Below are positions 20,080-44,676 of a stretch of 62,147 bases of DNA, piece after piece (the stretch's first letter is position 1; each line of letters opens with the position of its first letter). This DNA is from a virus (taxonomy: Duplodnaviria > Caudoviricetes). Below the pieces are notes generated by a model, which was not told the origin of the DNA, did no database searches, and worked only from the letters and a program-made list of their open reading frames with translations. The translations under genes and the position numbers were made by a program. The stretch spans positions 1 through 62,147 of the IMG/VR virus record IMGVR_UViG_3300042868_003080; one strand, given 5' to 3'.

Positions 20080-20115
20080 GGGGACACCAGAGCAAGGGGC
20101 AAAGGAGCAAACGAC

Positions 20116-21540: not shown

Positions 21541-21554
21541 AAGGAGCAAACGAC

Positions 21555-21716
21555 ATGACAAAGGCAACATATTATTTCGAGGAAGACAACAAGTCGGGGA
21601 GCGGCGTGACCGCATGGGACGAATGCTATGTGGACGCAACATCAGAGACTGACGCATTGGCGCAACTTGAAAATCGCGGGGTTAACGTAACACACATCGA
21701 ACAAGTGCAAAACTAA
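21555..21716 (+). CDS. early hypothetical protein
   Basis: AAGGAGCAAAC RBS places the start at 21555. Confidence 0.65.
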   Translation: MTKATYYFEEDNKSGSGVTAWDECYVDATSETDALAQLENRGVNVTHIEQVQN

Positions 21717-21728
21717 GGGGCAAACGAC

Positions 21729-22229
21729 ATGACCACAACACTAACTAAGAAACCAGTAATCGAACTGAAGAACATCAAGCACACGGCATGGGCATCACAA
21801 GAGACCCACTGCTACCAAGCAACCCTGTACGTCGATGGCGTCAAGTGGGGGACTGTGTCCAACCAAGGACATGGGGGTGGTGATGACTTCCACAGCGAAA
21901 ACAAAAGCGATGAGGACATCAAGTGGTTGAATAACCAAATCAAGGAAACATACGACCCATACGAGTACGAGGGTTACACCCTTAAGAAAAACCTAGAGAT
22001 GGTGTGCGGTGACCTAGTCAACCAATGGCTGCGCGATAAGGACTTCAACCGCGCAATGAAGGCCAAGGTGCTGTTTACCAAGCCCGACACGCAAGGCATC
22101 TGGCAACTAGCTGTAAAGAAACCGCTGACGTTCGAGGTGATGTTAGCAAAGGCCAAGGCGCAGCACCCACACTACACATACCTTGCCGACCTGCCAGTCG
22201 ATGAGGCCAAAGCAATCTACTTCGCATAA
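21729..22229 (+). CDS. conserved phage hypothetical protein
   Basis: SQETHCYQATLYVDG...NQGHGG motif; AAGGGGCAAAC RBS. Confidence 0.7.
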   Translation: MTTTLTKKPVIELKNIKHTAWASQETHCYQATLYVDGVKWGTVSNQGHGGGDDFHSENKSDEDIKWLNNQIKETYDPYEYEGYTLKKNLEMVCGDLVNQWLRDKDFNRAMKAKVLFTKPDTQGIWQLAVKKPLTFEVMLAKAKAQHPHYTYLADLPVDEAKAIYFA

Positions 22230-22239
22230 GGAGCAAACC

Positions 22240-23396: not shown

Positions 23397-23422
23397 CTCA
23401 CCGATAACAAGGAGCAAACAAC

Positions 23423-28603: not shown

Positions 28604-29189
28604 TGAAGAATATGAATGTCCGCTTTGGTGGCAGACCCAGGTTTCCCAAAAAGAACTGGATGCGCGCATGGCGGCAGCGACAGAGCGAGCGGAAAAAGAG
28701 ACCCAAGCACAGCGCGAGCGTAGAGAGATCAACCAGCGGCGGTGGGAGGAGTTTAAGGATGTACCCAACGGTCGCAACTGGGCGATATGGAAGCGGTACA
28801 AAGCTGGGGGTGTGAGCCAGAAAAAAGTTGCGGAAGAGTTTGGTGTAACCCCTGAACGCATAAGACAAGCAGTAGCTAAGATCGACCGAGGGATACGCAC
28901 GGTTCTTAATCGGGGTATGGCCACAATGTGGGACACCGTGCCTGACGAATACCGCGAAGGTACGTTGGGGATTGAGTTTGTGTTTACTAACGACCTTGTT
29001 GTTAACGACCGAGAGGGTTGGAAGGGATGGGATAAAGTAGACCGCTTCGGGCGTGGGCATACGTATTTCCCGCCAACCCCCGAGTGGCGCTCACGTGACG
29101 GACTGAACGACACGCGCCCAGCTATACCTCCCCCTGTTCACACCTACTACAAAACTATTATTGAAAAGGAGCAAACAGATGAAAATTAA
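28596..29189 (+). CDS. protein with sigma70 region-4-like HTH
   Basis: SQKKVAEEFGVTPERIRQAVAK versus RpoD TLEEVGKQFDVTRERIRQIEAK. Confidence 0.65.
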   Translation: MDDEEYECPLWWQTQVSQKELDARMAAATERAEKETQAQRERREINQRRWEEFKDVPNGRNWAIWKRYKAGGVSQKKVAEEFGVTPERIRQAVAKIDRGIRTVLNRGMATMWDTVPDEYREGTLGIEFVFTNDLVVNDREGWKGWDKVDRFGRGHTYFPPTPEWRSRDGLNDTRPAIPPPVHTYYKTIIEKEQTDEN

Positions 29190-29493: not shown

Positions 29494-29495
29494 AT

Positions 29496-29678: not shown

Positions 29679-30433
29679 CTGAAGAAAAACGTCCAAGCAT
29701 TATGATTGCCACCCCCATGTACGGGGGCATGTGCACGGGACACTATGTGCAAGGCTTGTTGATGACCATGGCTAAGATGCGTGACTTAGGCGTCAACGTG
29801 GCATGGTGTCAGATTATGAACGAGAGCCTTATCACCCGTGCACGTAACGACTTAGCACGAGTGTTCCTTGAGAGCGACCATGACTACCTCATGTTCATCG
29901 ACGCTGACATCGGCTTTGACGCAGAAGCTATCGCGCACCTGCTTCTGGCCGACAAGGACATCGCATGCGGTATCTACCCCAAGAAGGAAGTAAACTGGGA
30001 TAGCGTCAACCGTGCTGCCGTTGCAGGTAAGACGGACCTTGCGGACCATGCCGGAGCCTTTGTGTTCAACATGGTAGGTGGTAGCGATGTGCACACAGAC
30101 GAGACAGGCTGCATCGAAGTCCGCCACGGCGGCACAGGCTTCATGCTCATCAAGCGTAGTGTTTTTGAGCAGCTGATACCGCACGTGCCGACCTACCGCA
30201 CGTCGTCGTTCAAAGACCCAGTGACAGGCGAATATGCCAAGCCTTTGACCCACGAGTTTTTCGCCACCAGCATCGACGATACCGGTGCATTGTTGAGCGA
30301 AGATTACCATTTTTGTGAACTGTGGCGCAACCACGGCGGCAAAATACACGCCCATCCGTTCATCAAGTTGTATCATGTAGGCACGTATGTGTTTGGTGGT
30401 GACATCCTAAAGAGCGGCGGCAATCTTAAATAA
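29675..30433 (+). CDS. GT-A fold (GT2-like) glycosyltransferase
   Basis: IATPMY...ESLITRARN...YLMFIDAD...GTGFMLIKR...SEDYHFC...L.HVG. Confidence 0.75.
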   Translation: MTEEKRPSIMIATPMYGGMCTGHYVQGLLMTMAKMRDLGVNVAWCQIMNESLITRARNDLARVFLESDHDYLMFIDADIGFDAEAIAHLLLADKDIACGIYPKKEVNWDSVNRAAVAGKTDLADHAGAFVFNMVGGSDVHTDETGCIEVRHGGTGFMLIKRSVFEQLIPHVPTYRTSSFKDPVTGEYAKPLTHEFFATSIDDTGALLSEDYHFCELWRNHGGKIHAHPFIKLYHVGTYVFGGDILKSGGNLK

Positions 30434-30445
30434 GGAGCAAATGAA

Positions 30446-30937
30446 ATGAGAAAGAAAGAAAAAGCAGCAGCAATCATCAAACTGTTAAAGAAGGGTATGA
30501 CCCCCAAGGAAGTCAGGGACCGCATTGGGGTAAGCTACAACTACGCGTGGAAACTGAAGAAGGATTTGGAGAAAGCGGTGGATGAAGTGCTGAAACCCAA
30601 ACCCGAACCCGAAGTCACGGCCAAAGCCGGTGAGTATATCGTAGTCGAGGGCGCTAAGGACGCACAAGAGGTAGACGCAATCCTTGGTAAACGGGGCGAA
30701 CAGTATGGCTCGTTCATGCAGTCTTCGGACACGGTTATCCGGATCAAGGGCATCATGCACAATGCAGTGGCCCGGAACGAAGTGCACCTGTACCCCGACC
30801 AACTACAGGCGTTGGATATGATTGCTACTAAGATAAGTCGGATTGTACACGGCAACCCCAACCACACTGATAGCTGGATTGATATAGCTGGCTATGCTAC
30901 GTTAGTGGCTGACCGTCTCCAAGGGAAAATCAGATAA
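30446..30937 (+). CDS. N-terminal HTH + DUF6378-like domain
   Basis: GMTPKEVRDRIGVS; RGEQYG...KISRI...HTDSWIDIAGYA. Confidence 0.7.
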   Translation: MRKKEKAAAIIKLLKKGMTPKEVRDRIGVSYNYAWKLKKDLEKAVDEVLKPKPEPEVTAKAGEYIVVEGAKDAQEVDAILGKRGEQYGSFMQSSDTVIRIKGIMHNAVARNEVHLYPDQLQALDMIATKISRIVHGNPNHTDSWIDIAGYATLVADRLQGKIR

Positions 30938-30938
30938 C

Positions 30939-31607: not shown

Positions 31608-31609
31608 CC

Positions 31610-31906
31610 GTGCCGTACAAGAATAAAGCTGACCGCAAGTATACAAACGCCGCCAAATACGAAGCGCAACCCGAGCAAGTGAAGAACCGAGTTGCTCGCA
31701 ACGCTGCACGGCGCAAGCTTATGAAAGCGGGTAAGGTCAGTAAGGGAGACGGCAAGGATGTCGCTCACGTGAAAGCCTTCGACAAAGGCGGAGCGAACAA
31801 GAACGGTGTACGCGTAGAGAGTGCGTCTAAGAACCGCTCCTTCAAGCGGGACAGCAAGCGCAACCTAGTGTCGGAAACCAGTACGCGGGAACGCAAAAAG
31901 AAATAA
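31610..31906 (+). CDS. small HNH-like protein
   Basis: GDGKDVAH....KGG.N...V.S...NR pattern. Confidence 0.55.
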   Translation: MPYKNKADRKYTNAAKYEAQPEQVKNRVARNAARRKLMKAGKVSKGDGKDVAHVKAFDKGGANKNGVRVESASKNRSFKRDSKRNLVSETSTRERKKK

Positions 31907-31926
31907 CCCGCGCAAGGAGCAAACTA

Positions 31927-33486
31927 ATGCGGATCGTTGAAGACAAAGTCCTCCTCGTGGAGACACGGGACCCTGATGCTATTATATCGACAGTAAAGAA
32001 AAGCGCCTTGATGGAGACCCATCGCGGATCGTCCAAGGTTGCTGTGCATTGGGGACTGAAGGAAGCCCAGGCTTTAGCTGCCCTTGGACATGATGCGCCT
32101 TCACCGTTGCTGCGTGACTACCAGTGGACGGGTAAGTTCGCTCCGTTCGAACACCAGAAAACCACAGCGTCGTTCCTCTCACTCCGCAAGCGAGCATTCT
32201 GTTTCAGCGAGGCGGGCACAGGCAAGACAGCCAGCGTGATCTGGTCGGTAGACTACCTCATGCGGTTGGGTAAGGTTAAGCGCGTCCTTGTGCTCTGCCC
32301 ACTATCGATCATGAAGGCTGCATGGCAGCAGGACCTGTTTAAGTTCGCGATGCACCGCTCGTGCAGTGTAGCTCACGGTAGCGCCGAACAACGCAGGAAG
32401 ATTATCGCCGCTGGCTCCGAGTTCGTCGTCATCAACTTTGATGGGCTGGCTGTGGTCAAGGACGAAATCATCGCAGGCGGCTTCGATATGATCGTGGTGG
32501 ACGAGGCGACAGCCTACAAGAACCCGCAGACAACGCGGTGGAAGATACTCAAGGACATCGTCAAAGAGATAGACCCTTGGCTATGGATGCTTACTGGTAC
32601 GCCAGCCGCGCAGTCGCCCGTCGATGCTTATGGGTTGGCTAAGCTGGTGAACCCAGAGGGTTGCCCCAAGTTCTTCGGTGCGTTCCGCGACTCGGTGATG
32701 TACAAGGTGACGCAGTTTAAGTGGGCCGTGAAGCCGCAAGCCCAGTCCATCGTGCATCGCATCTTGCAGCCAGCGATCCGGTTCGAGAAGAGCCAGTGTC
32801 TCGACTTGCCGAAGGTTACCCATGTGGACCGTGACGCGCCCCTGACGCCACAGCAGAACAAGTATTACAAGATGCTCAAGAACCAGATGTGCATGGAAGC
32901 TGACGGCGAGCAGGTAAGCGCGGTCAATGCGGCGACTAACTTGAACAAGCTGCTACAGATCAGTGGAGGTGCGGTCTATTCGGATACTGGCGAGGTCGTA
33001 CAGTTCGACGTTAGCAACCGCATCAACGCCGTGTTGGAAGTGATTCGCGAAACCAACCGCAAGGTGCTGGTCTTCGTACCGTTCACGCACACCATCGAGC
33101 TATTGCGCGAAGTGCTGGAGAAAGAGAAGATCAGTTGCGAGGTCATCAACGGCAAGGTCAACCTCAACAAGCGCAGCCAGATCGTCGCTGACTTTCAGTC
33201 GCTGCCTGACCCCCGTGTGCTCATCATCCAACCACAAGCAGCAAGCCACGGCCTGACCCTGACAGAGGCAGACACAATCATCTGGTACGCACCTGTGACC
33301 AGTGTGGAGACCTACCTACAGGCAAACGCCCGTATCGATAGGCCAGGTCAGAAGCATCCTATGACCATCGTGCACATCTCCGGCAGCGAGGTAGAACATA
33401 AGCTTTACAAGATGTTACGGGGCAACATCGAGAACCACCAAAAAATAATCGATCTCTATCGTCAAGAAATTTTACAAACCGCTTGA
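31927..33486 (+). CDS. SNF2-family (SF2) helicase
   Basis: Walker A GTGKT, Walker B VVDEA, LTGTP, HGLTL, QANARIDRPGQ. Confidence 0.9.
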   Translation: MRIVEDKVLLVETRDPDAIISTVKKSALMETHRGSSKVAVHWGLKEAQALAALGHDAPSPLLRDYQWTGKFAPFEHQKTTASFLSLRKRAFCFSEAGTGKTASVIWSVDYLMRLGKVKRVLVLCPLSIMKAAWQQDLFKFAMHRSCSVAHGSAEQRRKIIAAGSEFVVINFDGLAVVKDEIIAGGFDMIVVDEATAYKNPQTTRWKILKDIVKEIDPWLWMLTGTPAAQSPVDAYGLAKLVNPEGCPKFFGAFRDSVMYKVTQFKWAVKPQAQSIVHRILQPAIRFEKSQCLDLPKVTHVDRDAPLTPQQNKYYKMLKNQMCMEADGEQVSAVNAATNLNKLLQISGGAVYSDTGEVVQFDVSNRINAVLEVIRETNRKVLVFVPFTHTIELLREVLEKEKISCEVINGKVNLNKRSQIVADFQSLPDPRVLIIQPQAASHGLTLTEADTIIWYAPVTSVETYLQANARIDRPGQKHPMTIVHISGSEVEHKLYKMLRGNIENHQKIIDLYRQEILQTA

Positions 33487-33511
33487 CAATGTATAATGTA
33501 AAAAGTATTAC
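33483..33511 (+). promoter_or_regulatory. promoter P6
   Basis: TTGACA-17-TATTAC; spacer contains AATGTAA. Confidence 0.65.
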
Positions 33512-33608
33512 CGCCATAGGTAACGTCCCTTGCGACGGCGCTGATTACAAAAGGCGGACCTGAACAGACAGGTTAAGTGGGGCGTTACCGACCAAGAAGG
33601 AGCTAACT

Positions 33609-34010
33609 ATGACAGACATGAAAGCGGACGAGCTAGTTCTCACATACCGCAAAATACGTGATGCTATCAACGAGAAGGAAGAAGCACACAAGGAAGAGAT
33701 TGCCGATCTCAAGGCACAGCAGGACGTGTTATCTGCTGCACTTCTCGACTTGTGTAACGAGCAGAATCTGGATAGCATCCGAACCCCTGCTGGGACGGTT
33801 ACGCGCACGGTGAACACCCGTTACTGGACGAACGATTGGGAGTCTACGTATGAGTTCATCAAGGAGCATGATGCTTTGCACCTGCTTGAGCAACGTATCC
33901 ATAACGGCAACATGAAACAATTTTTAGCAGAAAATCCGGACGATCTACCAGTCGGCCTTCAAGCCGATACCAAGTATGTCGTGCGCGTACGTAAACCCGT
34001 TTCGAAGTAA
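33609..34010 (+). CDS. conserved replication-cluster protein
   Basis: Coiled coil + SIRTPAGTV...W..Y.FI...LLEQRI motif; AAGGAGCTAAC RBS. Confidence 0.7.
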   Translation: MTDMKADELVLTYRKIRDAINEKEEAHKEEIADLKAQQDVLSAALLDLCNEQNLDSIRTPAGTVTRTVNTRYWTNDWESTYEFIKEHDALHLLEQRIHNGNMKQFLAENPDDLPVGLQADTKYVVRVRKPVSK

Positions 34011-34021
34011 GGAGATACTAA

Positions 34022-34936
34022 ATGAGCAACCTATCAATCTTTAAGCAAGCAGGTGCGGTATCGACCGCAGCTAAACGTGAACTGTCTGACCTTGGCAAAT
34101 CCCTTGCCTCTGTTAGCAACAGCCGCCGCATCCAGACCAACACTAACGGCACCTTCAAGCGTCTTGTGAACGGTGAGCAGATTGGCAAAGCCATCCGTGG
34201 TGAGTTCAACGCTATCATCGTGGACGCACTGCCTAAGGTCAGCCGCACCTTCTACGCTGGCAAGTACGATCCAGATGCCAAGCCTACCCTACCTGACTGC
34301 TGGTCAAACCTAGGCGATAAGCCTGAAGCAGCCGCTGGTAACCCACAGGCTAGCAACTGCGTGTCGTGCCCACAGAACGTCTCGGGTTCGGGCGATAACG
34401 GTAAGGGTCGTGCATGCCGCTTCCAGCGCCGCATCGCTGTTATCCTTGAGGGTGATGATTCGGGTGACGTCTATCAGTTCAACGTCCCAGCTAAGTCGCT
34501 CTTCGGTAAGGGCAACGGCAACGTGCATCCGTTCGAAAGCTACGTAAAGTTCCTGATTGCCAACGGTGAAAGCCCAGACGGCGTTGTGACCAACATCGCA
34601 TATAACCTCGACGCTGAGACAATGCAGATACAGTTCACCCCTGTGCGCGGTGTCAGCGACGAAGAGTATGCACTGGTCAAGGAAGCTCGTAACGATCCGG
34701 CTACCCGCCAGATGATTGTGCTGACGGTTGCACCACAGACGAACGCCACTGCACCGCAGGAAGAAGCTAAGCCACAACCAAAGGTCACCTACTCCGACGA
34801 GCCGGATGAGGATGAAGAAGTTGAAGCACCGAAGAAGCGTGTCTCTAAGGCTGCTGAAGACGTTGTTCCTCCGAAGAAGGACCTCGCTAATGTCCTTGCC
34901 ACTTGGGGCGATGACGATGATGAAGACGAGGACTGA
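34022..34936 (+). CDS. putative ssDNA-binding / annealing protein
   Basis: PDCWS...CVSCPQN..GS...KGRAC Zn motif; strongly acidic C-terminal tail WGDDDDEDED. Confidence 0.6.
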   Translation: MSNLSIFKQAGAVSTAAKRELSDLGKSLASVSNSRRIQTNTNGTFKRLVNGEQIGKAIRGEFNAIIVDALPKVSRTFYAGKYDPDAKPTLPDCWSNLGDKPEAAAGNPQASNCVSCPQNVSGSGDNGKGRACRFQRRIAVILEGDDSGDVYQFNVPAKSLFGKGNGNVHPFESYVKFLIANGESPDGVVTNIAYNLDAETMQIQFTPVRGVSDEEYALVKEARNDPATRQMIVLTVAPQTNATAPQEEAKPQPKVTYSDEPDEDEEVEAPKKRVSKAAEDVVPPKKDLANVLATWGDDDDEDED

Positions 34937-34938
34937 GA

Positions 34939-35169
34939 ATGTCGTACGGCTATAGCCTGAGACTTATCGAACGGAATAACCAAGCGAATGAGAGGAAGCT
35001 GGGTGTGCAACTGGGGCGGGCGTGTATTAAACACAACGTGCCTGTCGCGGTTGTCGCCAGCAGGTTTGGGGTAACCAGACAGACGGTGTATAATTGGTTC
35101 AGCGGGACTAGTAATCCTGCTGAATCCCTTCACGGCCTAGTTACCCACTACATCTCTACGCTTTCATAG
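34939..35169 (+). CDS. Cro/XRE-like HTH protein
   Basis: VASRFGVTRQTVYNWFSG. Confidence 0.75.
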   Translation: MSYGYSLRLIERNNQANERKLGVQLGRACIKHNVPVAVVASRFGVTRQTVYNWFSGTSNPAESLHGLVTHYISTLS

Positions 35170-35198
35170 GGTTCGCCCTATGATGTTTCCTATTTTTT
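35164..35198 (+). terminator. hairpin / possible terminator
   Basis: TCATAGGG-TTCG-CCCTATGA followed by an interrupted T-rich tract. Confidence 0.55.
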
Positions 35199-35231
35199 CC
35201 AGGCGTTTTTGCGTCTGATGGCTGGTGACTG

Positions 35232-38114
35232 TTGTATATGACAAACTTCGATCTTCTCCAAACTGTCCAACCTGATGACGGCTACTTCGCTATTGTCGGG
35301 ATAAAGGAAGGCAGTTGGACTAAGCAGGAACTGGTTGCCACGCGGGAAGAGGTCGATGCCCTTGCCGAGGAGTATGTGGCCGAAGGCCGTAACGTCTTCT
35401 TCGGTGTTGCTAAGTATACTACGGATGAGAATCGCACTAAGGATAACGTAGCGGGACTAAAGTCTTTCTGGCTCGACATCGACTGCGGTGAAGCCAAAGC
35501 AGAGGTGAACCCGAAGACTGGCCGACCTGATGGGTACATAGATCAGGAAGCAGGGATAGAAGCACTTAAAGCTTTCCTTGCTACCACCGGTCTACCTAAG
35601 CCCATCCTCGTCAACTCAGGACGCGGGATACACGCATACTGGGCGCTGACCGAGAGCATCACCCGTGAAGAGTGGGAGCCAGTAGCAGCACGGCTGCGTG
35701 ACCTGTGCAACATCCATAAGTTCTACATCGACCCGCAGGTCTTCGAAGTGGCGCGCATCCTGCGCATACCCGACACTCTCAACTTCAAGGACAATCCTCC
35801 GAAGCCAGTGACCGTGTGGGCTAAGGCTAAGCCGGTAGACTTCGCGCTGTTCTACAAAACGCTAGGGGTGAAAACGCAAGACTTAACCCCCCTAGAAACT
35901 CCGAAGCGGGAACTATCAGACCTCGCTAAGTCCATGCAAGAAAACGTAACGTCACGCTTCAGCAAAATCATGACGCGCAGCGCAAAGGGCACGGGCTGCC
36001 AGCAGCTGCTCGACTGCTTCGAAACTCGCGATAGCCTGTCGGAAGGCCGGTGGTTCAACGCGCTGTCGGTGGCAAAGTTCTGCATCGACCAAGACACTGC
36101 AATCCATACCCTGTCTGAAGGGCATCCTGACTACGAACCAGGGAAGACGCTGCACAAGATCAAGCACATCTTGGGGCCGCACACCTGCGAAGTGTTCGAA
36201 CGTAATAACCCTGGTGGCTGCGAAGGCTGTCCGCATATGGGCAAGATTAAATCACCAATCATGTTGGGTCGCGAGGTTCAGGCAGCGACTGACGCCGACA
36301 ACGTCATCATAGAAGAACCCGAACTCGAAGGCACATTGCCGACAATCCACGTGATACCTGACTACCCCTTTCCGTTTTTCAGGGGGAAGGCCGGTGGTAT
36401 TTACCGCAAGCCGCCACTAGATAAGAACGGTGAGGAGTCGGAAGAGGGCGACATCTGTGTGCTACCTTACGACATGTACGTCCTGAAGCGCATGCGTGAT
36501 CCGGTGCTGAAAGATGTCGCGGTGATTAAAATCCATAAGCCTAAGGACGGTGTAACCGAACTTACGGTGCCCCTCACACAGGCTGTGGAACCCACGGACT
36601 TACGGAAGTTATTGGCAGGGGAGAGTATCCTCTGCGGTAAGAAGCAGTTTGAGTTCATATCGGAATACATGAGAGCATCAGTGTCGATGCTGTCTGATAA
36701 AGCAAAGGCAGAGCAAATGAGACTACAATTTGGATGGGCTGACAACGACAGCAAGTTTATCGTTGGTGATTCGGAAATCACGGTAGAGGGGGCGTATTAC
36801 AGCCCGCCATCGTCAACCACTTCGGAGATTGCACGGCGCATGGGGCCGGTAGGCTCGTTCGAAAAGTGGCAAGAAGTCTTCAACCTATACGGTACCCCTG
36901 GGCTTGAGCCACATGCGTTCGCTGCGCTTACTGGCTTCGGTGCGCCAATCTTTAAGTTCTTGGGCCAGCGCGGCGCAATGCTTAACGTCATTCACCCTAG
37001 TTCCGGTACAGGTAAGACGACGATCCTGCACATGGCTAACAGCATCTGGGGATCACCTGACGGCCTGTGCTGCGTGAAGGAAGACACGCTGAACGCTAAA
37101 ATCCTGCGGCTCGGTATGTACAACAACCTGCCGTACACCGTTGATGAAATGACCAACATGAACGACAAAGAGTTCTCGGCTCTGGTCTACAACATCACGC
37201 AAGGTCGGGGTAAAGACCGCGTCAAGGCATCGTCGAACGAACTGCGCCACAACGCAACGTCATGGCAAACAATGGCCCTATGCTCATCAAACGCATCCTT
37301 CTACGAGAAGATGGGTGTAGCTAAGAGCAGCCCAGACGGTGAGTTGATGCGCTTGGTCGAGTACAAGATTGACTACACAGATGTGCTCGACCCGTTCGTT
37401 GCCAAGGATATGTTCGACCACCAACTGATGGACAACCACGGCCATGCCGGTCGCATCTACGCAACGTGGCTCGTCAAGAACTACGAAGAAGCCAAGCGTA
37501 TCGCGCTTAACACCCAAGCTAAGCTGGATCGGGAACTGCAACTGCTGCCACGCGAGCGCTTCTGGTCAGCGGTATTGGCTGCTAACTTGGCAGGCGGCAT
37601 CATCGCCAAAGACATTGGGCTAATTAACTGGGACATGGCGCGCATCTACGACTGGGCTTGCGGCATGCTGCTTGGCCTTCGTGAAGATGTAGAACCGCCA
37701 CGCAACAACGCTATCGAGATAGTCGGTGACTTTATCCGTCGCAACACGCAGAACATCTTGGTGGTTAACGACGGGGCAGACTTGCGCTCCAACATGCATG
37801 CCGCCCCGCTACTGGAGCCTCGCGGCGAACTGATGATTCGGTGGGAGCCTGACACTAAGAAGATGTTCATTGCCGTAGCTTCGTTCAAAAAGGACTGCGC
37901 AGAAATCCAGGTCAACTATAAGGAGACCCTGCGGCAGCTTAAGGAACAGGGCGTGATGAAGGAAAAAGGCAAAGTGCTCAAGCGGATTAACAAGGGCATG
38001 AAGCTGGAAGGCCCGCCAATCTACTGCCTTGAGTTCGATACCTCGATACAGGAGTTCTTCAACGTCAGCAGCACCTTGGGTCTTGAGGTCGAAGATGAAG
38101 ATCGAGGGGGTTAG
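35232..38114 (+). CDS. primase (AEP/RepB'-like)-DUF927 helicase fusion
   Basis: WLDID, NSGRGIHAYW, RILRIP.T.N; Cys cluster C...GGCEGCPH; P-loop SGTGKTT and VDE; start may be 35238. Confidence 0.82.
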   Translation: MYMTNFDLLQTVQPDDGYFAIVGIKEGSWTKQELVATREEVDALAEEYVAEGRNVFFGVAKYTTDENRTKDNVAGLKSFWLDIDCGEAKAEVNPKTGRPDGYIDQEAGIEALKAFLATTGLPKPILVNSGRGIHAYWALTESITREEWEPVAARLRDLCNIHKFYIDPQVFEVARILRIPDTLNFKDNPPKPVTVWAKAKPVDFALFYKTLGVKTQDLTPLETPKRELSDLAKSMQENVTSRFSKIMTRSAKGTGCQQLLDCFETRDSLSEGRWFNALSVAKFCIDQDTAIHTLSEGHPDYEPGKTLHKIKHILGPHTCEVFERNNPGGCEGCPHMGKIKSPIMLGREVQAATDADNVIIEEPELEGTLPTIHVIPDYPFPFFRGKAGGIYRKPPLDKNGEESEEGDICVLPYDMYVLKRMRDPVLKDVAVIKIHKPKDGVTELTVPLTQAVEPTDLRKLLAGESILCGKKQFEFISEYMRASVSMLSDKAKAEQMRLQFGWADNDSKFIVGDSEITVEGAYYSPPSSTTSEIARRMGPVGSFEKWQEVFNLYGTPGLEPHAFAALTGFGAPIFKFLGQRGAMLNVIHPSSGTGKTTILHMANSIWGSPDGLCCVKEDTLNAKILRLGMYNNLPYTVDEMTNMNDKEFSALVYNITQGRGKDRVKASSNELRHNATSWQTMALCSSNASFYEKMGVAKSSPDGELMRLVEYKIDYTDVLDPFVAKDMFDHQLMDNHGHAGRIYATWLVKNYEEAKRIALNTQAKLDRELQLLPRERFWSAVLAANLAGGIIAKDIGLINWDMARIYDWACGMLLGLREDVEPPRNNAIEIVGDFIRRNTQNILVVNDGADLRSNMHAAPLLEPRGELMIRWEPDTKKMFIAVASFKKDCAEIQVNYKETLRQLKEQGVMKEKGKVLKRINKGMKLEGPPIYCLEFDTSIQEFFNVSSTLGLEVEDEDRGG

Positions 38115-38289
38115 TTACGACATTAACTGGAAGGCATTCAGGCGAGGCACGTCGATATTTATCCCGTGCCTCGACCCCCCACGTGCCAAAGAAGAAGTCC
38201 GAGCCATACTGCGCAGGATGCGCATCAAGGTGGTTATGAAGCTCGTGATCGAAGAAAATATTAGGGGTTTACGTATTTGGCGGATGTGA
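38095..38289 (+). CDS. small basic conserved protein
   Basis: GAGG SD, start MKIEGV at 38095; W..F..G.SIFIPC...GLRIWR. Confidence 0.65.
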   Translation: MKIEGVSYDINWKAFRRGTSIFIPCLDPPRAKEEVRAILRRMRIKVVMKLVIEENIRGLRIWRM

Positions 38290-38302
38290 TTAATATGGTC
38301 GC

Positions 38303-38375
38303 CGGAAGTTTGCTCCTTCCTTGATGCTTGCATCATCCCCTAACCCTCGGCTGCCCACTCAGCCGAGGGTTTTTT
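38303..38375 (+). ncRNA. putative anti-RBS small RNA (~72 nt)
   Basis: Promoter-like TTTACG-17-TAATAT (38268-38296); hairpins GGAAG-TTTGCTC-CTTCC and TGATG-CTTG-CATCA plus terminator; 38308-38318 is the reverse complement of AAGGAGCAAAC. Confidence 0.6.
38342..38375 (+). terminator. rho-independent terminator ending the plus-strand arm
   Basis: AACCCTCGGCTG-CCCACT-CAGCCGAGGGTT-TTTT. Confidence 0.9.
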
Positions 38376-41300
38376 ATTTTTCCTTCTTCACTTCGCTGTA
38401 GGTCTGGTTGAACGCTTTGTAGACGTCGTTCAGGGCGTCACGCTTATCTTGGACGCTGGCGTAATTGCCTTCACGGTAGTCCTTGTTGATGGTCTGTATC
38501 TCGGACAAAGCTGTATCAAAGGCATCCATAACACGCGTGTCAGCCTGCACAGGGAATGCAGCTTCGTTCTCAGCCCATGCTTCGGGTTCCTCGTCGGATT
38601 TTTTGTATGTACTATGGATCGACTTAAGACGGTCATAGTCTTGGTAGAACTTGTTCATCGGAACGTACTCGCCACCCTTACCGAAGTACGTGCTGACAAG
38701 CGGGATACGTTCTGCAAGTGTCTTATCCGGCTTAGCCTCTCCGGTCAGCAGGTCTAGGGTATCACGCCCAAAACCATAAGCACCTCCGAAAATCTGCTGG
38801 GCAATATACCGGTACTGTTCGGGTTGAGCGCTTCCGGCGGATTCCACCGTGTCGGTGCCCCCAAAGAGGGAGTTCATACCTCGCGCAATGAATTTCCAAA
38901 CTTTACCGGTCTCTTCACGTCCAAGTTCTGACTTTGGCTCAGTGTTGTACTCGCCTTGGGGTGTGTAGATTTGCGATCCGAAAGCATTCCGGTTAGCCAT
39001 TAAATCACGGAGCGGTTGCAGCCCTATGTCGGGGACGAGTAAGTCAACACCAGCGGATAACCCCTCAGTGCCTTCGGCTTTGATAGGGGACGCCAGACTT
39101 ACGAAACCCGTGACGATGTTGGTGGCTGCCTCCATGGGTTCAATGTCCTGCAAGAACATCGCCATAAGCTGGCCACCTACATAGTTGAAATAACCTATAC
39201 CAAAAGCGGTTGGGACGGATGCATAGTCGTTAATGCCGGGGCCATATCGGGCGATTACCCGCGTCTGGGCAGTTACGTTATTGACCTCAAGGATATTCGG
39301 ACGCCCGTCTTCGTCGTCATCACCTGCACCAGGGCCAAAACGGTTGAACAAGTAGAGCAGCATCCCTGCGCCGACCAATTTGGTGAATAGCTTACGTGCA
39401 ATTGTGCTGTATCGCCCTTGAGAGAGTAGTTTACGCGCACCCCCAACAGTCGGGCTAAAGAAGAAACTCCAGTTATCGAGGAGAGAGGCCATTTCGCCCC
39501 GACGGGTCATGTCCAACGTAGAGTCAAGGGCCAGCGCGGCTGCGTCTTCGCGGCTGATATTCACTTCGAGCGCCGCACGATAGGTGGCGAAACGCGCATG
39601 GAGATCGAAAAGCTGAGATGCATGGTCCAACGCACCCGCTACTGCATCCTTAGCTAAGAGTGCGGCAGCAATAGGGTCGGCGCGTTTGGCAGCGGCGTAA
39701 CGCTTGATGGTCTTGGCTGTGTCCTGCGCGTAGCGCTCCGCGTCCATAATCTGCGCATGGCCGACTGCGCCCCCGTCTTCGAGGAACTGGTCGAAGAGCA
39801 GTGCCATTAGCTCGCCTTCGGCTGTGGTCGGGTCCTTACCTTTAAGGTAATTCGAGATGGTGCCCATCCCGCTCCGCACGGCGGCGATATTTCGGAGGGT
39901 CCGCTTAAAGAGTTTGGTACCTTCTGCTGGACCACCCTTAATGCCTTGCGCAGCACGAGCCGTCGCAAGAGCTTCCGAAAAGTCGCGCAACCACGATACC
40001 CCAAAAGTGAAAACGGGGCTGTAGCGGGTCTTCATCGACTTAAGAAAACTCCCGACCTCCGCGATACTGGGAATACGCATATCCATATTACCTGCACGGA
40101 AAGAATACCCTGCATGCATAATCTGATCGAGAAGGCGCGGCGTCATATTACCAAACAGACGGTATAGCGCATTACCCGCTGGGGTTTCGGCGAACTCGAT
40201 GTAATAGGGTTCGCCGTCCTTCTTGACGATCATAAGGCTGGAGTCTTTTTGCGCCGCAATCTGGTTCATATCGACTGGACCAGCGGGGCCGATCTTTGGC
40301 ATTGTCACATGTCCGCCTGGATACGTCTTTTTCTTAGGCGTGTAGACCGTGACAAGGTCCTCGTGACTTTTAGGGTCGCTGAGTATGTTGTTGAGGAAAG
40401 TTTGTTTAACCTTGTTCTGCTCGATACGAGCAATAGCAGACTGCGCATCAGTCATGAGGTTGAAGAGCGGGTTGAACGGTATCGATTTACGGCCCCGAGT
40501 CGTCATCGCTTCGCGAACACGAGTACCATTCTTTTTGGCAATACCGCGTTCTTCGTCGCTATGCGGATTAGGCTCACCATCAACCTGCATATCACCGTCT
40601 AGTGCATAACCCTTAAGCGGTGTGTAGAACGGCTGCGCCTTACGCATGGCCTCCCAAACTTTCTTAGGTAGAAGCCCAGCTTTCACCCGCTGATTACCCA
40701 TATAATCCACAAGTGCATCGTGCAGCTTAGCAACCTCACGTAGTTTGGGGCCAAGCCCTTCAAGTTCAAGTTCGTCTAGCTTTGCCTGAGCCTGAGCATC
40801 CGACATCCCCGAGCCGTTTTCCTCACCGTTGCGTTCGCGGACCAGTGCGTTACGGGCAGGAGCGCTGCGCGCCCAGAGATACATAGCTATATCCGCCGGA
40901 TCGAGACCTAGTTCTACTACCTTGTCTTCAATAGGCTGGAGGTACCAGCGGTTAAGTCGCATCTGACCACCGATTTTACGGGTCTCCAGTAGCTCAAACT
41001 TGCGCGCTACGTCGAGATCGGCAGGTAGTTTGGTAACCCCATAAGCAGCCGATAGTGCACGGGAGTAATCATATGCGGTCTTATATTTGCCTTCGAGCCT
41101 ACGCCGACTCCTGCTCCACATGCTTTTGACACGACGTTCTAGATCGGCAGCGAAGCCGATAGCTTCCGCACGAGGACGGTTAAGCGCCGCAGGGAAGGCA
41201 CCCTCGATAGTGGTAGGATCAGCCTCTAACTGCTCTTCGATTGGGCTGATATCCTCTTCAGGATTATTGATCGTCTGCTTGGTAGCAGTAGGTGCGGGCT

Positions 41301-44300
41301 GTTCGGTTACTGGCGCAGCCGCTTTAGGTGTAGGGGAAGCTACTTTTACGGCATCCGCTTTAGCCATAAACTGCAAGGCGTCATCGGCAAATTTGTTTAG
41401 CGGGCCGTCGGATTTTTTGTTATTGTTAACGTCGGCTACCCACCGAGCCAAGGTTTCAGCAGTTTCTATAGCAGCACTGGGGTCAACGAACTGCGCGCCG
41501 CGCAGCCATATAGTAGCAGCGGCGGTGTTACCACGGTCACCATAAACTTTATCAGTGGTAGGAACCAACACCGATACCTGCGTACCTACAGTGCCGTCTT
41601 TGGCGATAAATTGCTCAACTCGTACATCAGACTGACTACCAGTGGGTCTAGGGCGTCCAGGTATATCGTACTGAATTACATCGTTCGGCACCCATGCAGG
41701 CTTCTCGGCACCCGCAACAGTGGCCTGCGACCCACCATCGTACCAGAAAGCTGACACAGCCATATTTTCATACGGTACCAGTTCAACAGGCGTACCAGCA
41801 GGTGCTTCTTCCGCTACAGGCGCTTCCTGCATTACCGGCGCTTCTTCGACCACTGGCGCTTCTTCGACCACTGGCGCAGCCTCTGCTGTCGGCGCTTCTT
41901 CGATTGCTGGCGCTTCTTCCTGTACAGTTTCCTGTACAACTTCATCGGCTACCGGCACTTCTTCCTGTACAACTTCTTCGATTACCGCTTCAGGCGCAGT
42001 ACCTCGTTCAATGATTTCCGCAGGAAGCCCACCAGGCTCAACAGGAAGCTGGGCAGTAGTTATGGGTTCAGCACTCTCCGCAATCTGTGCCTCAAGTGGT
42101 GCTGCATCTCCCCGCAGCATGCGGGTTTCTTCCACAGTCGGGTCGCCAAGCGCTGGGTTCTCGTCGAGCAACTCAGTAAACCCACGGTATTTATCCGTGA
42201 TGGTCGGATCAGCAAGCACTTGGCCCAGTAATTCCTGACGCCGCTGGGTGTACTCACCTTCAGGACCGAACACCGCATTCGCTGCTTCGAAGCCACCGAT
42301 ACGCTCAATCTCGTGCCGATAAAGCGGTTTATACCCTTTTTTGCGGAGCTTGGCATCGATACTCTCAGCTTTACCGACTACGGCGCGTCTGGCTTCAAGG
42401 GCTTCAATATTTTTGATTGCCCTACGTGCTGCGGGTATATTCTTATTTGGTTGAGCGTCTAACTTAGCCCGTTCGGCTGCAATCTGCGCATCGATAGCTT
42501 CTTGGGCAGCGAGTATCTCTTCCTCTCTCCCAGTAGGTATGCGGTCATCGTACAGCACACTCTCGATAATATTCACGCGGTCAACAAGCTGCTGCCGTTC
42601 AGACGTGTCCTTCTCTTGTCCTGCAGCCGTCTCGGCATCCGATTCCGCCCGCATAGCGTCATACAGTGATGCGACTTCAACGGGTGTAGGAGCGTCAAAA
42701 CCGTTCTGAACCATGAGGGCTTCGAAGGTTTCAACTTTATCGACGGAGTTAGGGTCATTCGCGATGGCGTTAAGAGTCGCCGCACGCTGCTCACGCATTG
42801 CACGCATCGTGTCAATCTGACTTTGGATTGCTTCGTCAGAGAGTGGCGCGGAGGTTTCAGTGCTTGTCGGTTGGTCTACATCAGGAGCAGTGCCCTCCAG
42901 AGCAGCCCCTTCAGGAGGTGCGGTGACGAGACCCACATACTCGTTGTTGAGCTTCACTGCCTCGTCGAGCACAAGCATGCGGGCAATTTTAGCATCTTCT
43001 GAAAGACGCGCCCTGCGTAGACCGTTTTGCTGCTTCTGGAGGTAGGTTTCCGTCTTCTCGGGGGTACCCAACGCCATGTTGTTATTGAGCGTCGTGGTTA
43101 CACTATTGATGTAGGACTGCATATCGCTGTCAGGTTCAGCGTTCCCAAGGGCACCAACAAGCCGCTGCGTAAGTGCGGGGGCAGAAAGAGTATCAGGGAT
43201 AGGTACAGCACGAATGCCCTCGGTCGGGGCACGCATGCGATATAGTTCTTTGAGTGATGTCTGATAGACGGTGCCGTCAGCGCGACGGGCGAGCACATCA
43301 CCATTTTCATCAGGCTCGGATATCCGCTGCACCTTCTGCCGCGTGAGTTGCGACGGGTCTTCATAGCTTCCGACGTTGACGTCAAACTCTTCAATGGGTA
43401 CGTTTGCCGCCGCTGTCTGTTCGAAAGCTTTTTTACGGTTATCCGCAGCGCGTTTACCAAGAACATTCGTAAGCTCGACACCACCGCGCAGACCACCACC
43501 GACGATTGCGCCGTACATTGCTTCTTCACCGACCCCTTCGGTTACATCTTTTTCGGGGTTGTACGTCGTCTGCTCGACAACATTTTGCGCCAGTTTTGCG
43601 CCGCCTTCCTGCGCACCTTCTTCAAAGGCGGCGACACCCACACGGCCCCGCGCAGTTTTCTGGATGTCGGCTACGAGCGCACGTGCTTCCGCTGCCGCAG
43701 CTTTTGGGGACATACCACCCACCTGCACGCGCTCCGCGAGGTTTGCGATTTTCGCTGTCATAGACCCACGCAAAGAAGACGGAACACGGGCCATCATAGT
43801 GTCTAGGGTGAGAACTTCTGTAGCACCGATAGCAGCGCCGAGAGACTGTGCGAATGCGCGCACAACAGGATTAACGGTCTTCCCTGTTTCAGCTTCGTAT
43901 TGTTCAACCGCCTGACGCTGTTGTTGCGCACCAGACCCTGCGCCTAATGCAAGTTGTGTCGCTTGTTCTGCCCGTGCGATTGTAGGGACAGCACGTGTAC
44001 CAGCGACAGCCATACCCGCACGAGAAGCACCACGGAGAGCAAACGCAGGTGCGACACTACCCGCTGCTTCAGAGAGCTTACGAAGTTGCCTAGCACCTGC
44101 ACCGAACTTAGCCGCGTCGCTCTCGTCAGGTGCAAGGTAGTTTTGGATTATCTGCTCACCGAATGCTTCAGATGCTTTACCTGGGGATTCAATACCCACC
44201 CCACCCAACAGACTAGGAAGACCTGTGACATACCGGACCGCACCAGCACCAAGCCCTTTGAGTTGATCCATAGCAGCTTGGCCGAAAGACCGTTCAGGCA

Positions 44301-44661: not shown

Positions 44662-44676
44662 GCGGCACTCCTATCA

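What the first reader, a model, noticed from the sequence alone, without database searches (positions are those of the whole stretch)
38268..38375. Putative phage sRNA antisense to a shared extended RBS of early/middle genes
Seen: the ~85-bp gap between the convergent arms holds three hairpins: GGAAG[TTTGCTC]CTTCC, TGATG[CTTG]CATCA (a gCUUGc-type tetraloop) and a 12-bp terminator. A promoter-like TTTACG-17-TAATAT lies just upstream, overlapping the end of the last ORF. Bases 38307-38318 (AGTTTGCTCCTT) are the reverse complement of AAGGAGCAAACT, the motif before about 11 plus-strand start codons. The non-SD, discriminating part (UUUGC) sits in the loop, as a seed would. On the minus strand no start codon follows the motif, so it is not itself an RBS. 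Established: trans-acting sRNAs often block SD sequences through loop seeds, and T4 RegB shuts off early mRNAs at GGAG using a nuclease. Inference: one ~72-nt RNA could shut off a whole class of early/replication genes at the early-to-late switch. I do not know of a described equivalent.
Basis: partly seen in the sequence, partly recalled or inferred. Interest (0 to 1): 0.9.

Follow-up and report, generated by a model that had tools for sequence, protein, structure and literature searches.

The report
Phage RNA hairpin mirroring ribosome-binding sites
Behind its replication genes this uncultured lake phage encodes a short RNA hairpin whose exposed bases are the mirror image of the ribosome-binding sites of about nine of its own genes, and related phages have changed hairpin and sites together, so the two very probably pair to control translation, although the RNA itself has not been seen.

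Summary
Window 38290-38373 is the gap between convergent arms of a complete 62-kb phage genome. It holds hairpin GGAAG[TTTGCTC]CTTCC (38304-38320), a second weak hairpin and a 12-bp terminator. The hairpin is the exact complement of AAGGAGCAAAC, which sits 1-3 nt before nine plus-strand ATGs.

Comparative evidence supports the antisense reading.
- The element lies at the same junction in 56 of 73 distinct related junction sequences.
- Its stem shows compensatory changes.
- In 49 of 56 distinct pairs the junction RNA has at least 8 nt of perfect complement to the RBS of the 133-aa gene ortholog. Sense, reversed and shuffled controls give 0 of 56.
- Four hairpin types each go with their own complementary RBS motif on several genes.

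Not shown: a discrete RNA, its start, repression, or timing. The hairpin also lies in the 3' end of the arm's mRNAs, so cis pairing as in icaR is equally possible. Independent evolutionary events are few.

No Rfam family matches. I class it as a new variant of a known kind, the RBS-masking antisense RNA. The scan found the same kind of element before on other DNA (e1-6224724, e1-6292114).

The parts
38268..38273 (+). -35-like hexamer TTTACG, inside the last codons (G-L-R) of the small ORF
   Evidence: The best -35-like hexamer is TTTACG in 38 of 56 distinct hairpin-bearing junctions and lies at -22 from the stop end in 36 of 56. Part of this conservation comes from the conserved peptide RGLRIWR.
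38291..38296 (+). -10-like hexamer TAATAT, 17 nt after the -35
   Evidence: Total match is 8 of 12, below the scan's threshold. In relatives the hexamer is TATACT, TATAAT and similar. The promoter score is at least 8 in 42 of 56 junctions and at least 9 in 10 of 56. The distance from the -10 end to GCTCC is 13-17 nt in 49 of 56.
38304..38320 (+). Hairpin 1: 5' arm GGAAG, 7-nt loop UUUGCUC, 3' arm CUUCC. Loop plus 3' arm are the anti-RBS seed (38307-38318 complements AAGGAGCAAACU).
   Evidence: On alignment A2, 99.2% of cells are paired, 3 of 5 pairs show changes on both sides, and 0 of 500 shuffles reach this. RNAalifold predicts the hairpin on its own.
38322..38335 (+). Hairpin 2, UGAUG[CUUG]CAUCA. 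Weak and specific to this lineage.
   Evidence: Kept only in the closest relatives (L001-L003). Other lineages have a different hairpin or a short linker here.
38342..38381 (+). Intrinsic terminator for the plus strand (12-bp stem, U-run). It overlaps the stop codon of the minus-strand 2095-aa gene.
   Evidence: Seven of 9 predicted pairs show compensatory changes in 48 relatives. On the minus strand no T-run follows the stem.
33597..33607 (+). Extended RBS AAGGAGCTAAC of the 133-aa gene (33609-34010), first gene of the operon that ends at the hairpin. This is the target best supported by co-variation.
   Evidence: In the window itself one mismatch (T for A) limits the perfect match to 8 nt.
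31914..31924 (+). Extended RBS AAGGAGCAAAC of the SNF2-type helicase gene (31927-33486)
   Evidence: Own versus non-own complement length is 7.56 versus 6.62, with 0 of 2000 permutations as high. The L006 group has (T/C)GAGGAGCAAAC together with arm CTCCTC.
30432..30442 (+). RBS AAGGAGCAAAT of the HTH_23/DUF6378 gene (30446-30937)
29166..29176 (+). RBS AAGGAGCAAAC of a 104-aa gene (29179-29493)
23409..23419 (+). RBS AAGGAGCAAAC of a 66-aa gene (23423-23623)
22228..22238 (+). RBS AAGGAGCAAAC of an 89-aa gene (22240-22509)
21715..21725 (+). RBS AAGGGGCAAAC of a 166-aa gene (21729-22229)
21541..21551 (+). RBS AAGGAGCAAAC before the ATG at 21555
20102..20112 (+). RBS AAGGAGCAAAC of a 70-aa gene (20116-20328)
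33483..33511 (+). Sigma-70-like promoter (TTGACA, 17 nt, TATTAC) upstream of the 133-aa gene. It would start the mRNA whose 3' end carries the hairpin.
   Evidence: TTGACA plus a TAnnnT hexamer 16-17 nt later is conserved in most relatives. The scan tool did not list it in the window because the sixth base of the -10 is C.

Best explanation
The gap holds a conserved RNA element that ends the plus (early/middle, replication) arm.

It is made in one or both of two forms. One is a separate RNA of about 75 nt from its own weak sigma-70-like promoter. The other is the common 3' end of the arm's mRNAs.

The 7-nt loop and 3' arm of its first, weak hairpin (UUUGCUCCUUCC) pair with the extended Shine-Dalgarno region AAGGAGCAAAC of about nine plus-arm genes. 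The best supported targets are the 133-aa gene that opens the last operon and the SNF2 helicase gene.

Pairing would cover the SD and spacer and so keep ribosomes off, lowering translation.

Shown: the anatomy, its conservation, stem covariation, and co-variation of hairpin and RBS motifs across lineages. Inferred: that the RNA exists as a discrete species, that pairing represses rather than stabilises or activates, and when it acts.
For: (1) Complementarity. The hairpin is an exact 11-12-nt complement of a motif found 9 times 1-3 nt before plus-strand ATGs. Twelve hits against 1.13 expected.

(2) Same place in relatives. The element follows the small ORF at the same junction in 56 of 73 distinct junction sequences, which come from IMG/VR contigs whose primase is 56-97% identical. 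A promoter-like pair at fixed distance precedes it and a terminator with 7 of 9 pairs compensatory follows it.

(3) Stem 1. 99.2% of cells are paired, 3 of 5 pairs change on both sides (G-C/A-U, A-U/G-C/U-A), and 0 of 500 shuffles reach this. Slid controls give 47-79% paired.

(4) Own versus foreign targets, by longest perfect complement to the RBS.
- 133-aa gene: own 8.91 versus non-own 7.52, 0 of 2000 permutations as high.
- Helicase gene: 7.56 versus 6.62, 0 of 2000.
- HTH gene (window 30446): 9.60 versus 9.07, 28 of 2000 (10 pairs only).
- Five control genes show no effect (1999, 1930, 120, 1974 and 555 of 2000).

(5) At least 8 nt of perfect complement to the 133-aa gene's RBS occurs in 49 of 56 distinct pairs. 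Controls: sense 0 of 56, reversed 0 of 56, shuffled 0 of 56, complement-only 7 of 56.

(6) Column level. The base after GGAGC pairs in 95% of own pairs versus 80% when shuffled. The third base after it pairs in 80% versus 46%. For flank columns 0 of 300 shuffles are as high.

(7) Regulon level. Four hairpin types each go with their own complementary start-linked motif. Counts are for GGAGCAA / GGAGCGA / AGAGGTAA / (A)GAGAGAGG(A).
- UU(U)GCUCC, 71 loci: 128 / 3 / 1 / 0
- CGCUCC, 11 loci: 8 / 11 / 0 / 0
- GUUACCUCU, 3 loci: 0 / 0 / 5 / 0
- UCCUCUCUC, 2 loci: 0 / 0 / 0 / 4
- No such hairpin, 20 loci: 10 / 2 / 1 / 1

(8) In L059 a second 11-nt complement lies just upstream of the SD of the same target.

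(9) Hairpin 1 is weak (-5.1 kcal/mol). Duplexes with the motif genes are -17 to -23.5 kcal/mol. With a 23-nt seed, 15 of 44 plus-strand genes and 5 of 51 minus-strand genes reach -15 kcal/mol.

(10) Contigs from three RNA libraries (two studies) carrying 88-99% similar phages cover the plus arm up to the gap and little beyond it. One contig spans 38321 and stops inside the terminator. This is weak evidence: contigs show neither strand nor ends.
Against: - No direct evidence exists for a discrete RNA, its 5' end or its level (one search has contigs only).
- The window's promoter matches 8 of 12 and was not listed by the scan. Only 10 of 56 relatives reach 9 of 12. The -35 lies in a conserved peptide, so its conservation is partly due to coding.
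- Independent events are few. The tree gives 3 independent pairs for hairpin presence versus a GGAGC RBS on well-supported branches: about 2 go the same way, 0 the other way, 1 shows no difference, sign test p about 0.5. The CGCUCC type is nearly one clade. Shuffle tests ignore relatedness.
- Exceptions: L079 lost the hairpin but keeps GGAGCAACC. L095's changed arm is not matched by its targets. Several UUUG-loop phages (L035, L053, L124, L125, L063, L049) have GGAGCAAC/T at the 133-aa gene. The window's own 133-aa gene has a mismatch.
- A second contact 3' of the hairpin is not general (own 4.89 versus 4.68, 185 of 2000).
- For the helicase and HTH genes the column test was not significant (80 and 101 of 300).
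- A strong extended SD could be favoured for translation alone, with the hairpin following it for another reason.
Confidence: 0.7

Rival explanations
1. A cis-only element. The hairpin works as the 3'UTR of the operon mRNA that starts at the promoter before the 133-aa gene. It folds back onto that mRNA's own 5' RBS, as in icaR of S. aureus, to limit translation or trigger cleavage. No separate small RNA matters.
For: A conserved TTGACA-16/17-TAnnnT promoter lies 20-100 nt before the 133-aa gene's RBS. No strong plus-strand terminator lies between 16 kb and 38.3 kb; the terminator-like hits there are weak and at chance number. The best co-varying target is the first gene of this operon. icaR sets the precedent (PMC3868564, abstract read).
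Against: The promoter-like pair just before the hairpin keeps a fixed distance in 49 of 56 junctions. Motif-bearing genes up to 18 kb upstream co-vary too, which is easier to explain in trans. The two modes do not exclude each other.
Confidence: 0.15
2. The hairpin is a 3'-end stability, processing or protein-binding structure (for an RNase, a chaperone or a phage protein). Its pyrimidine-rich anti-SD-like sequence complements the RBS motif only as a by-product.
For: The hairpin sits just before a terminator, where protective or processing hairpins are common (established knowledge). The stem is conserved by covariation, which any structured element would show.
Against: This does not explain why loop and arm sequence track the RBS motif through four different types, including a change of the SD core itself from GGAG to GAGG. 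It also does not explain the own-versus-non-own effect, which is absent for control genes.
Confidence: 0.08
3. A double-stranded DNA motif read by a DNA-binding protein in either orientation (operator, replication or packaging signal). The RBS copies and the inverted copy would be sites of one protein.
For: A DNA site can work in both orientations, and co-variation with a changing protein specificity is conceivable (inference).
Against: The plus-strand copies sit 1-3 nt before start codons and contain the SD. The inverted copy keeps a stem by compensatory changes, which points to a single-stranded fold. There is only one inverted copy per genome, always between a promoter-like pair and a terminator.
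Confidence: 0.04
4. Chance, or the relic RBS of a lost minus-strand gene.
For: An ORF of 73 aa on the minus strand (38115-38336) overlaps the region.
Against: That ORF starts upstream of the motif, and no start codon follows the motif. An exact 11-mer in an 84-bp gap is expected about 4e-5 times (my arithmetic). The element is conserved with covariation down to 56% primase identity.
Confidence: 0.02

Closest known systems
c4 antisense RNA of phages P1 and P7 (and sar RNA of P22)
   Same: A phage-encoded RNA of about 70-77 nt. Its loop sequences are complementary to the region around a ribosome-binding site of a phage mRNA and block translation. Specificity types differ between related phages (review PMC12197685, passages read).
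   Different: No sequence or structure match to any Rfam family, c4 included. c4 and sar control one antirepressor gene in temperate phages. Here about nine replication-arm genes share the target motif. No integrase or repressor turned up, but the window was not screened for them. The element lies at the 3' end of the arm, downstream of its targets. That c4 lies upstream of its target is recalled, not read.
icaR mRNA 5'UTR-3'UTR pairing, Staphylococcus aureus
   Same: An anti-SD motif in a 3'UTR pairs with the SD region of the same mRNA, blocks initiation and creates an RNase III substrate (PMC3868564, abstract read). Here the hairpin is the 3' end of the operon whose first gene has the best-matching RBS.
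   Different: icaR is a monocistronic bacterial gene. Here the span is about 4.8 kb and polycistronic. Further targets lie up to 18 kb upstream, and a promoter-like pair directly precedes the hairpin.
3'UTR-derived bacterial sRNAs with their own promoter inside the upstream gene (DapZ, MicL; recalled, not read here)
   Same: The promoter overlaps the end of the upstream coding sequence. The sRNA shares the mRNA's intrinsic terminator, has a seed near its 5' end and a U-tail.
   Different: Those are host sRNAs acting on host mRNAs with Hfq. Here both the RNA and its regulon belong to the phage. The chaperone and the host are unknown.

Membership tests
c4 antisense RNA family of Rfam (P1/P7 c4, P4 CI) | Match to the family's covariance model | tested here: not met
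   cmscan of 37500-39200 at E up to 10 lists 7 weak hits, none to a c4-type family; the best is NsiR1 at 22.2 bits against a gathering score of 39. The whole window at gathering thresholds gives 0 matches.
c4 antisense RNA family of Rfam (P1/P7 c4, P4 CI) | Loop sequences complementary to the RBS region of a phage mRNA | tested here: met
   Loop plus 3' arm are the exact complement of AAGGAGCAAAC(T). At least 8 nt of complement in 49 of 56 relatives.
c4 antisense RNA family of Rfam (P1/P7 c4, P4 CI) | Encoded upstream of its target in the same operon and processed from that transcript (recalled) | tested here: not met
   Here the element lies downstream of all motif-bearing genes, at the terminator.
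3'UTR-derived sRNA with own promoter | Promoter within or at the end of the upstream coding sequence | tested here: inconclusive
   TTTACG-17-TAATAT matches 8 of 12 and was not listed by the scan. Score at least 8 in 42 of 56 and at least 9 in 10 of 56 relatives, at fixed distance. No transcription start data.
3'UTR-derived sRNA with own promoter | Shares the intrinsic terminator of the upstream mRNA | tested here: met
   The only strong plus-strand terminator of the arm is at 38342-38371.
3'UTR-derived sRNA with own promoter | Discrete, abundant short transcript | not testable with these tools
   Only contigs of RNA libraries were on hand. They show cover of the spot but no ends, strand or level.
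icaR-type 5'UTR-3'UTR pairing | Anti-SD motif in the 3'UTR complementary to the SD region of the first gene of the same mRNA | tested here: met
   Sequence level only: hairpin against the RBS of the 133-aa gene, own exceeding non-own.
icaR-type 5'UTR-3'UTR pairing | Both ends lie on one transcript | tested here: inconclusive
   A promoter-like site at 33483-33511 and no strong terminator before 38342. No RNA data.
icaR-type 5'UTR-3'UTR pairing | Block of initiation complex formation and RNase III cleavage of the duplex | not testable with these tools
   Needs toeprinting and cleavage assays.
Intrinsic (Rho-independent) terminator | G+C-rich stem-loop followed by a U-run | tested here: met
   Twelve pairs, 8 G-C, tail TTTTATTTTT. 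-22.6 kcal/mol, z = -7.78. Covariation in 7 of 9 pairs.

The most novel reading that the evidence does not exclude
The hairpin and the shared extended RBS form a co-evolving specificity system. Related lake phages fall into at least four matched hairpin/RBS types (UUUGCUCC with GGAGCAAA, CGCUCC with GGAGCGA, GUUACCUCU with AGAGGUAA, UCCUCUCUC with GAGAGAGGA). These types could act like the heteroimmunity groups of P1/P7 c4. A resident or faster phage's RNA would silence the replication genes of a co-infecting phage of the same type but not of another type. Competition between phages would then drive diversification of a translational 'address code'.
Probability: 0.12. Interest if true: 0.85.

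Novelty: new variant of a known kind. Interest (0 to 1): 0.68.

Why it matters
Few phage-encoded regulatory RNAs are known, and most come from temperate model phages where they control one gene. Here a single short RNA element appears tied to a whole set of replication-arm genes through a shared, extended ribosome-binding site.

The family of uncultured freshwater phages that carries it has hundreds of members in public data. It offers natural compensatory 'mutants' of both partners.

If confirmed, three things would follow.
- RNA-based control of translation would be shown to be a conserved layer of the lytic programme in environmental phages.
- A purely computational signature (an inverted RBS motif at an operon end) would be available for finding such regulators.
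- Orthogonal sRNA/RBS pairs would be available for engineering.

It can be tested in E. coli reporters without growing the unknown host.

Tried and rejected
- Nucleotide search of 37800-38900 against 50,697 phage records: no match.
- Protein search with the primase: the best cultured relative is Pseudomonas phage Rollin at 28.5% identity. Its convergent junction has no gap and no such element. No cultured model is at hand.
- Rfam: nothing. tRNA scan of the window: none.
- Duplex energies of a 45-nt RNA against 41-nt targets showed own below non-own for three genes: the 133-aa gene (-26.4 versus -23.9), the helicase gene (-21.7 versus -19.9) and the HTH gene (-29.8 versus -27.9). Controls showed no such effect (-17.4/-17.6, -15.9/-16.3, -21.4/-20.5). 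The absolute values are inflated by long bulged duplexes.
- The same approach on all 2155 candidate starts of the window did not put the motif genes on top. I replaced it with a 23-nt seed on 95 called genes. Neither computation models accessibility.
- A second contact between the segment 3' of hairpin 1 and the sequence upstream of the SD is not significant overall (185 of 2000). L059 (11 nt) and L087 (8 nt) are striking single cases.
- RNAalifold on the mixed alignment A1 missed hairpin 1, because loops of different length shifted the 5' arm. It found the hairpin on A2, which holds loops of one length.
- My first hairpin finder had a bug and returned nothing. It was fixed.
- My GCTCC-based classing called L094/L101/L103 and L038/L041 'no hairpin'. 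One search showed that they carry other anti-RBS sequences. The 'none' rows therefore overstate losses.
- The exact 17-mer in GTDB genomes: 48 hits against about 69 expected by chance (my arithmetic). Only 1 of 44 with flanks (L300, an 8-kb MAG contig) has the junction architecture. No host clue came of it.
Of the 110 with flanks, 70 passed my crude terminator-plus-peptide filter. The other 40 collapse to 18 distinct contexts: 6 are the same junction, 10 are one conserved coding stretch of an unrelated gene, and 2 are other.
- ESM Atlas look-up of the 64-aa protein: only unnamed viral clusters.
- RNA-library contigs cover little of the late arm. Absence of cover proves nothing.
- I built no covariance model. 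I judged the regular-expression and alignment counts sufficient.
- Supplementary files of papers were not consulted.
Full report
WHAT IS THERE

The window is a complete virus record of 62,147 bp with direct terminal repeats. It is held by many lake-water metagenomes.

Plus-strand genes run from about 16.7 kb to 38.3 kb. The last ones are:
- an SNF2-type helicase (31927-33486);
- a 133-aa protein (33609-34010; phrog_13900, with weak DUF7307 and Mu-Gam hits below Pfam's cut-offs);
- a 304-aa protein;
- a 960-aa primase/helicase (35232-38114; phrog_25314 and phrog_8841);
- a 64-aa ORF (38095-38289).

A 2095-aa virion-type gene converges from the minus strand and ends at 38374.

- Hairpin 1 (38304-38320) folds at -5.1 kcal/mol.
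- Hairpin 2 (38322-38335) folds at -3.5 kcal/mol.
- The 12-bp terminator (38342-38371 plus U-run) folds at -22.6 kcal/mol.

On the minus strand no T-run follows the stem, so the terminator serves the plus strand.

TTTACG-17-TAATAT lies at 38268-38296. It matches the sigma-70 consensus at 8 of 12 positions and fell below the scan's threshold of 9.

THE MOTIF

AAGGAGCAAAC with up to one mismatch occurs 12 times against 1.13 expected; 0 of 100 shuffles reach 12.
- Nine copies (six exact) lie on the plus strand, 1-3 nt before an ATG, between 20.1 and 33.6 kb.
- The only exact minus-strand copy is hairpin 1, and no start codon follows it.

The complement covers the loop (UUUGCUC) and the 3' arm.

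RELATIVES

The primase and the helicase each fetched 80 IMG/VR loci, 156 in all. More than 593 stretches match the primase, and primase identity runs from 97% down to 56%. No cultured phage is close: the best is Pseudomonas phage Rollin at 28.5%, and it has no gap at its junction.

I anchored on the small ORF (111 of 157 sequences). This gave 73 distinct junction sequences, of which 56 carry a GCTCC hairpin at the same place. There is one such hairpin per locus.

Before the hairpin lies a promoter-like pair:
- score at least 8 of 12 in 42 of 56 junctions, at least 9 in 10 of 56;
- -35 at a fixed place in 36 of 56;
- -10 end 13-17 nt before GCTCC in 49 of 56.

Behind it lies a terminator in which 7 of 9 predicted pairs show compensatory changes. 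The middle segment varies and holds a different hairpin or none.

HAIRPIN 1 IS A CONSERVED FOLD

Alignment A2 holds 24 sequences with loops of one length. On it 99.2% of cells pair and 3 of 5 pairs change on both sides (GGAAG/CUUCC, GAGAG/CUCUC, GGUAG/CUACC, GAGG/CCUC). None of 500 shuffles reaches this, and slid controls pair at 47-79%. RNAalifold predicts the hairpin unaided. GCUCC is invariant in 48 sequences.

HAIRPIN AND RBS CHANGE TOGETHER

The RBS of the 133-aa gene ortholog tracks the loop:
- UUUGCUCC goes with GGAGCAAAC;
- UUGCUCC goes with GGAGCAAC/U;
- AAUCGCUCC goes with GGAGCGAUU.

The arm CUCCUC of the L006 and L120 groups goes with GAGGAGCAAAC before the helicase gene.

The longest perfect complement is greater for a phage's own pair than for foreign pairs:
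- 133-aa gene: 8.91 versus 7.52, 0 of 2000 permutations as high;
- helicase gene: 7.56 versus 6.62, 0 of 2000;
- HTH gene at 30446: 9.60 versus 9.07, 28 of 2000 (10 pairs only);
- five control genes: 1999, 1930, 120, 1974 and 555 of 2000.

At least 8 nt of perfect complement to the 133-aa gene's RBS is present in 49 of 56 distinct pairs. The controls give 0 of 56 for the sense, reversed and shuffled RNA and 7 of 56 for the complement-only control.

Column by column, the first and third bases after GGAGC pair in 95% and 80% of own pairs, against 80% and 46% after shuffling. No shuffle of 300 matches the flank columns. The same test was not significant for the helicase (80 of 300) or the HTH gene (101 of 300).

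THE WHOLE SET OF GENES FOLLOWS

After start-linked GGAG:
- phages with a U-GCUCC loop have CA in 141 of 359 distinct sites and CG in 18;
- phages with a C-GCUCC loop have CG in 12 of 47 and CA in 11;
- junctions without a GCTCC hairpin have CA in 12 of 80 and CG in 1.

I had first classed two lineages as 'no hairpin'. They carry other anti-RBS sequences at the same junction.
- L094/L101/L103 have single-stranded GGUUACCUCUAA. AGAGGTAA lies before at least four genes, the 133-aa ortholog among them.
- L038/L041 have a loop UCACUCCUCUCUCG. CGAGAGAGGA, GAGAGAGG and AGAGAGGA lie before the helicase, the 133-aa and the 304-aa orthologs.

The cross-table of four hairpin types against four start-linked motifs is close to diagonal: 128/3/1/0, 8/11/0/0, 0/0/5/0 and 0/0/0/4. 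The remaining 20 loci give 10/2/1/1.

In L059 a second 11-nt complement lies 2 nt upstream of the SD of the same target.

WHAT WEAKENS THE CASE

The number of independent events is small.
- On a primase tree of 71 rows the hairpin is widespread, with scattered losses.
- The conservative count gives only 3 independent pairs on supported branches. About 2 go the same way, none go the opposite way, and the sign test gives p about 0.5.
- The C-GCUCC type is close to one clade.
- Shuffle tests ignore relatedness.

There are exceptions.
- L079 lost the hairpin but keeps GGAGCAACC.
- L095's arm change is unmatched.
- Several UUUG-loop phages have GGAGCAAC/U at the 133-aa gene.
- The window's own 133-aa gene has one mismatch, so its perfect match is 8 nt.

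The further contact 3' of the hairpin is not general (185 of 2000). The promoter is weak by consensus, and its -35 lies in a conserved peptide.

RNA EVIDENCE

Only contigs of three RNA libraries (two studies) were available. They carry relatives 88-99% alike. They cover the plus arm up to the bin 38078-38611 and little of the late arm. One contig (depth 26.5 against about 12-15 nearby) spans 38321 and ends within the terminator. This fits transcription up to the terminator, but it shows neither strand, ends nor a separate small RNA.

CIS OR TRANS

A conserved TTGACA-16/17-TAnnnT promoter sits just before the 133-aa gene. No strong plus-strand terminator occurs between 16 and 38.3 kb. The hairpin is therefore also the 3' end of the operon whose first RBS it matches best, and perhaps of all plus-arm mRNAs.

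Fold-back pairing as in icaR (PMC3868564, abstract read) is therefore possible, alongside or instead of a separate RNA. The fixed promoter-like pair and the co-variation of genes far upstream favour a trans-acting RNA. The data do not decide.

MECHANISM, AS FAR AS SUPPORTED

Hairpin 1 is weak (-5.1 kcal/mol). Duplexes with the motif genes are -17 to -23.5 kcal/mol with a 23-nt seed. With that seed, 8 of the 9 motif sites and the related site at 28596 are among the 13 best of 95 called genes. The threshold of -15 kcal/mol is reached by 15 of 44 plus-strand genes and 5 of 51 minus-strand genes.

Pairing would start at the loop, which faces GAGCAAA, and spread into the 3' arm. It would cover the SD and spacer, so occlusion of the ribosome is the natural outcome. 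Repression, its timing and any helper protein are inferences.

COMPARISON

No Rfam family matches. The element works like c4 of P1/P7 and sar of P22 (review PMC12197685, passages read). It also works like the icaR 3'UTR and the 3'UTR-derived sRNAs with their own promoter (the latter recalled). It is a member of none by sequence.

It differs in three ways: a many-gene phage regulon defined by a shared extended RBS, its position at the 3' end of the replication arm, and matched specificity types across a large family of uncultured lake phages.

Three literature searches listed no description of such an element. That is no proof that none exists.

The scan noted the same kind of element before in two other genomes (e1-6224724, with a follow-up that reached a similar reading, and e1-6292114). 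Those are not independent evidence. My counts are from my own calls.

VERDICT

The antisense-to-RBS reading is well supported by comparison. The discrete-sRNA and shut-off-switch parts remain open. I class it as a new variant of a known kind, with interest 0.68.

Noticed in passing
window 33512-33590: Between the promoter and the RBS of the 133-aa gene the window carries an insert of about 75-90 nt that most relatives lack (L002, L003, L004 and L006 have a leader of about 20 nt). L001, L081 and L084 share it. It folds into a long-range stem (GGUAACGUCCC with GGGGCGUUACC), but z is only -1.64. In L092 and L134 a tRNA-like sequence (GGTTCGA T-arm, ending in CCA) sits at the same place.
   Followed up: partly
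window 33483-33511 and orthologous sites in the loci: The promoter before the 133-aa gene has a perfect TTGACA. Its spacer holds a conserved TGTAWAATGT-like word, which may be an operator.
   Followed up: no
window 38095-38289: A 64-aa ORF overlaps the primase end by 20 nt and has a conserved C-terminus (I/V)RGLR(I/V)WR. It has no Pfam or PHROG family, and the Atlas returns only unnamed viral clusters. It is kept even in relatives without the hairpin. Its last codons hold the -35-like hexamer.
   Followed up: partly
L079 (junction near 4821) compared with L073: L079 has hairpin 1 deleted but keeps the following UGGUUGGUGUUGG segment, the terminator and the GGAGCAACC RBS. This looks like a recent loss.
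   Followed up: partly
L021, L022, L024, L030, L031, L033 (junctions): This clade keeps a TATACT -10 and a terminator but has only about 25 nt between them (ACAAAUCUUGGUAGUGCCC), with no anti-SD. Its 133-aa gene uses GGAGAUUAAA. It may be a shortened RNA of unknown role.
   Followed up: partly
L159, L174, L178, L217, L220, L226, L231, L233, L263, L274: The exact 17-mer of hairpin 1 also occurs inside a conserved coding stretch of an unrelated phage gene. Bare pattern counts therefore overstate the family.
   Followed up: partly
window 29000-45000: In two of three RNA libraries, contigs of related phages cover the replication arm and almost none of the adjacent late arm.
   Followed up: no
window 28582-28598: The 197-aa gene starting with GTG at 28596 has AGGAGCAAGC before it. 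It gave the best seed duplex (-24.6 kcal/mol), because further bases pair.
   Followed up: no
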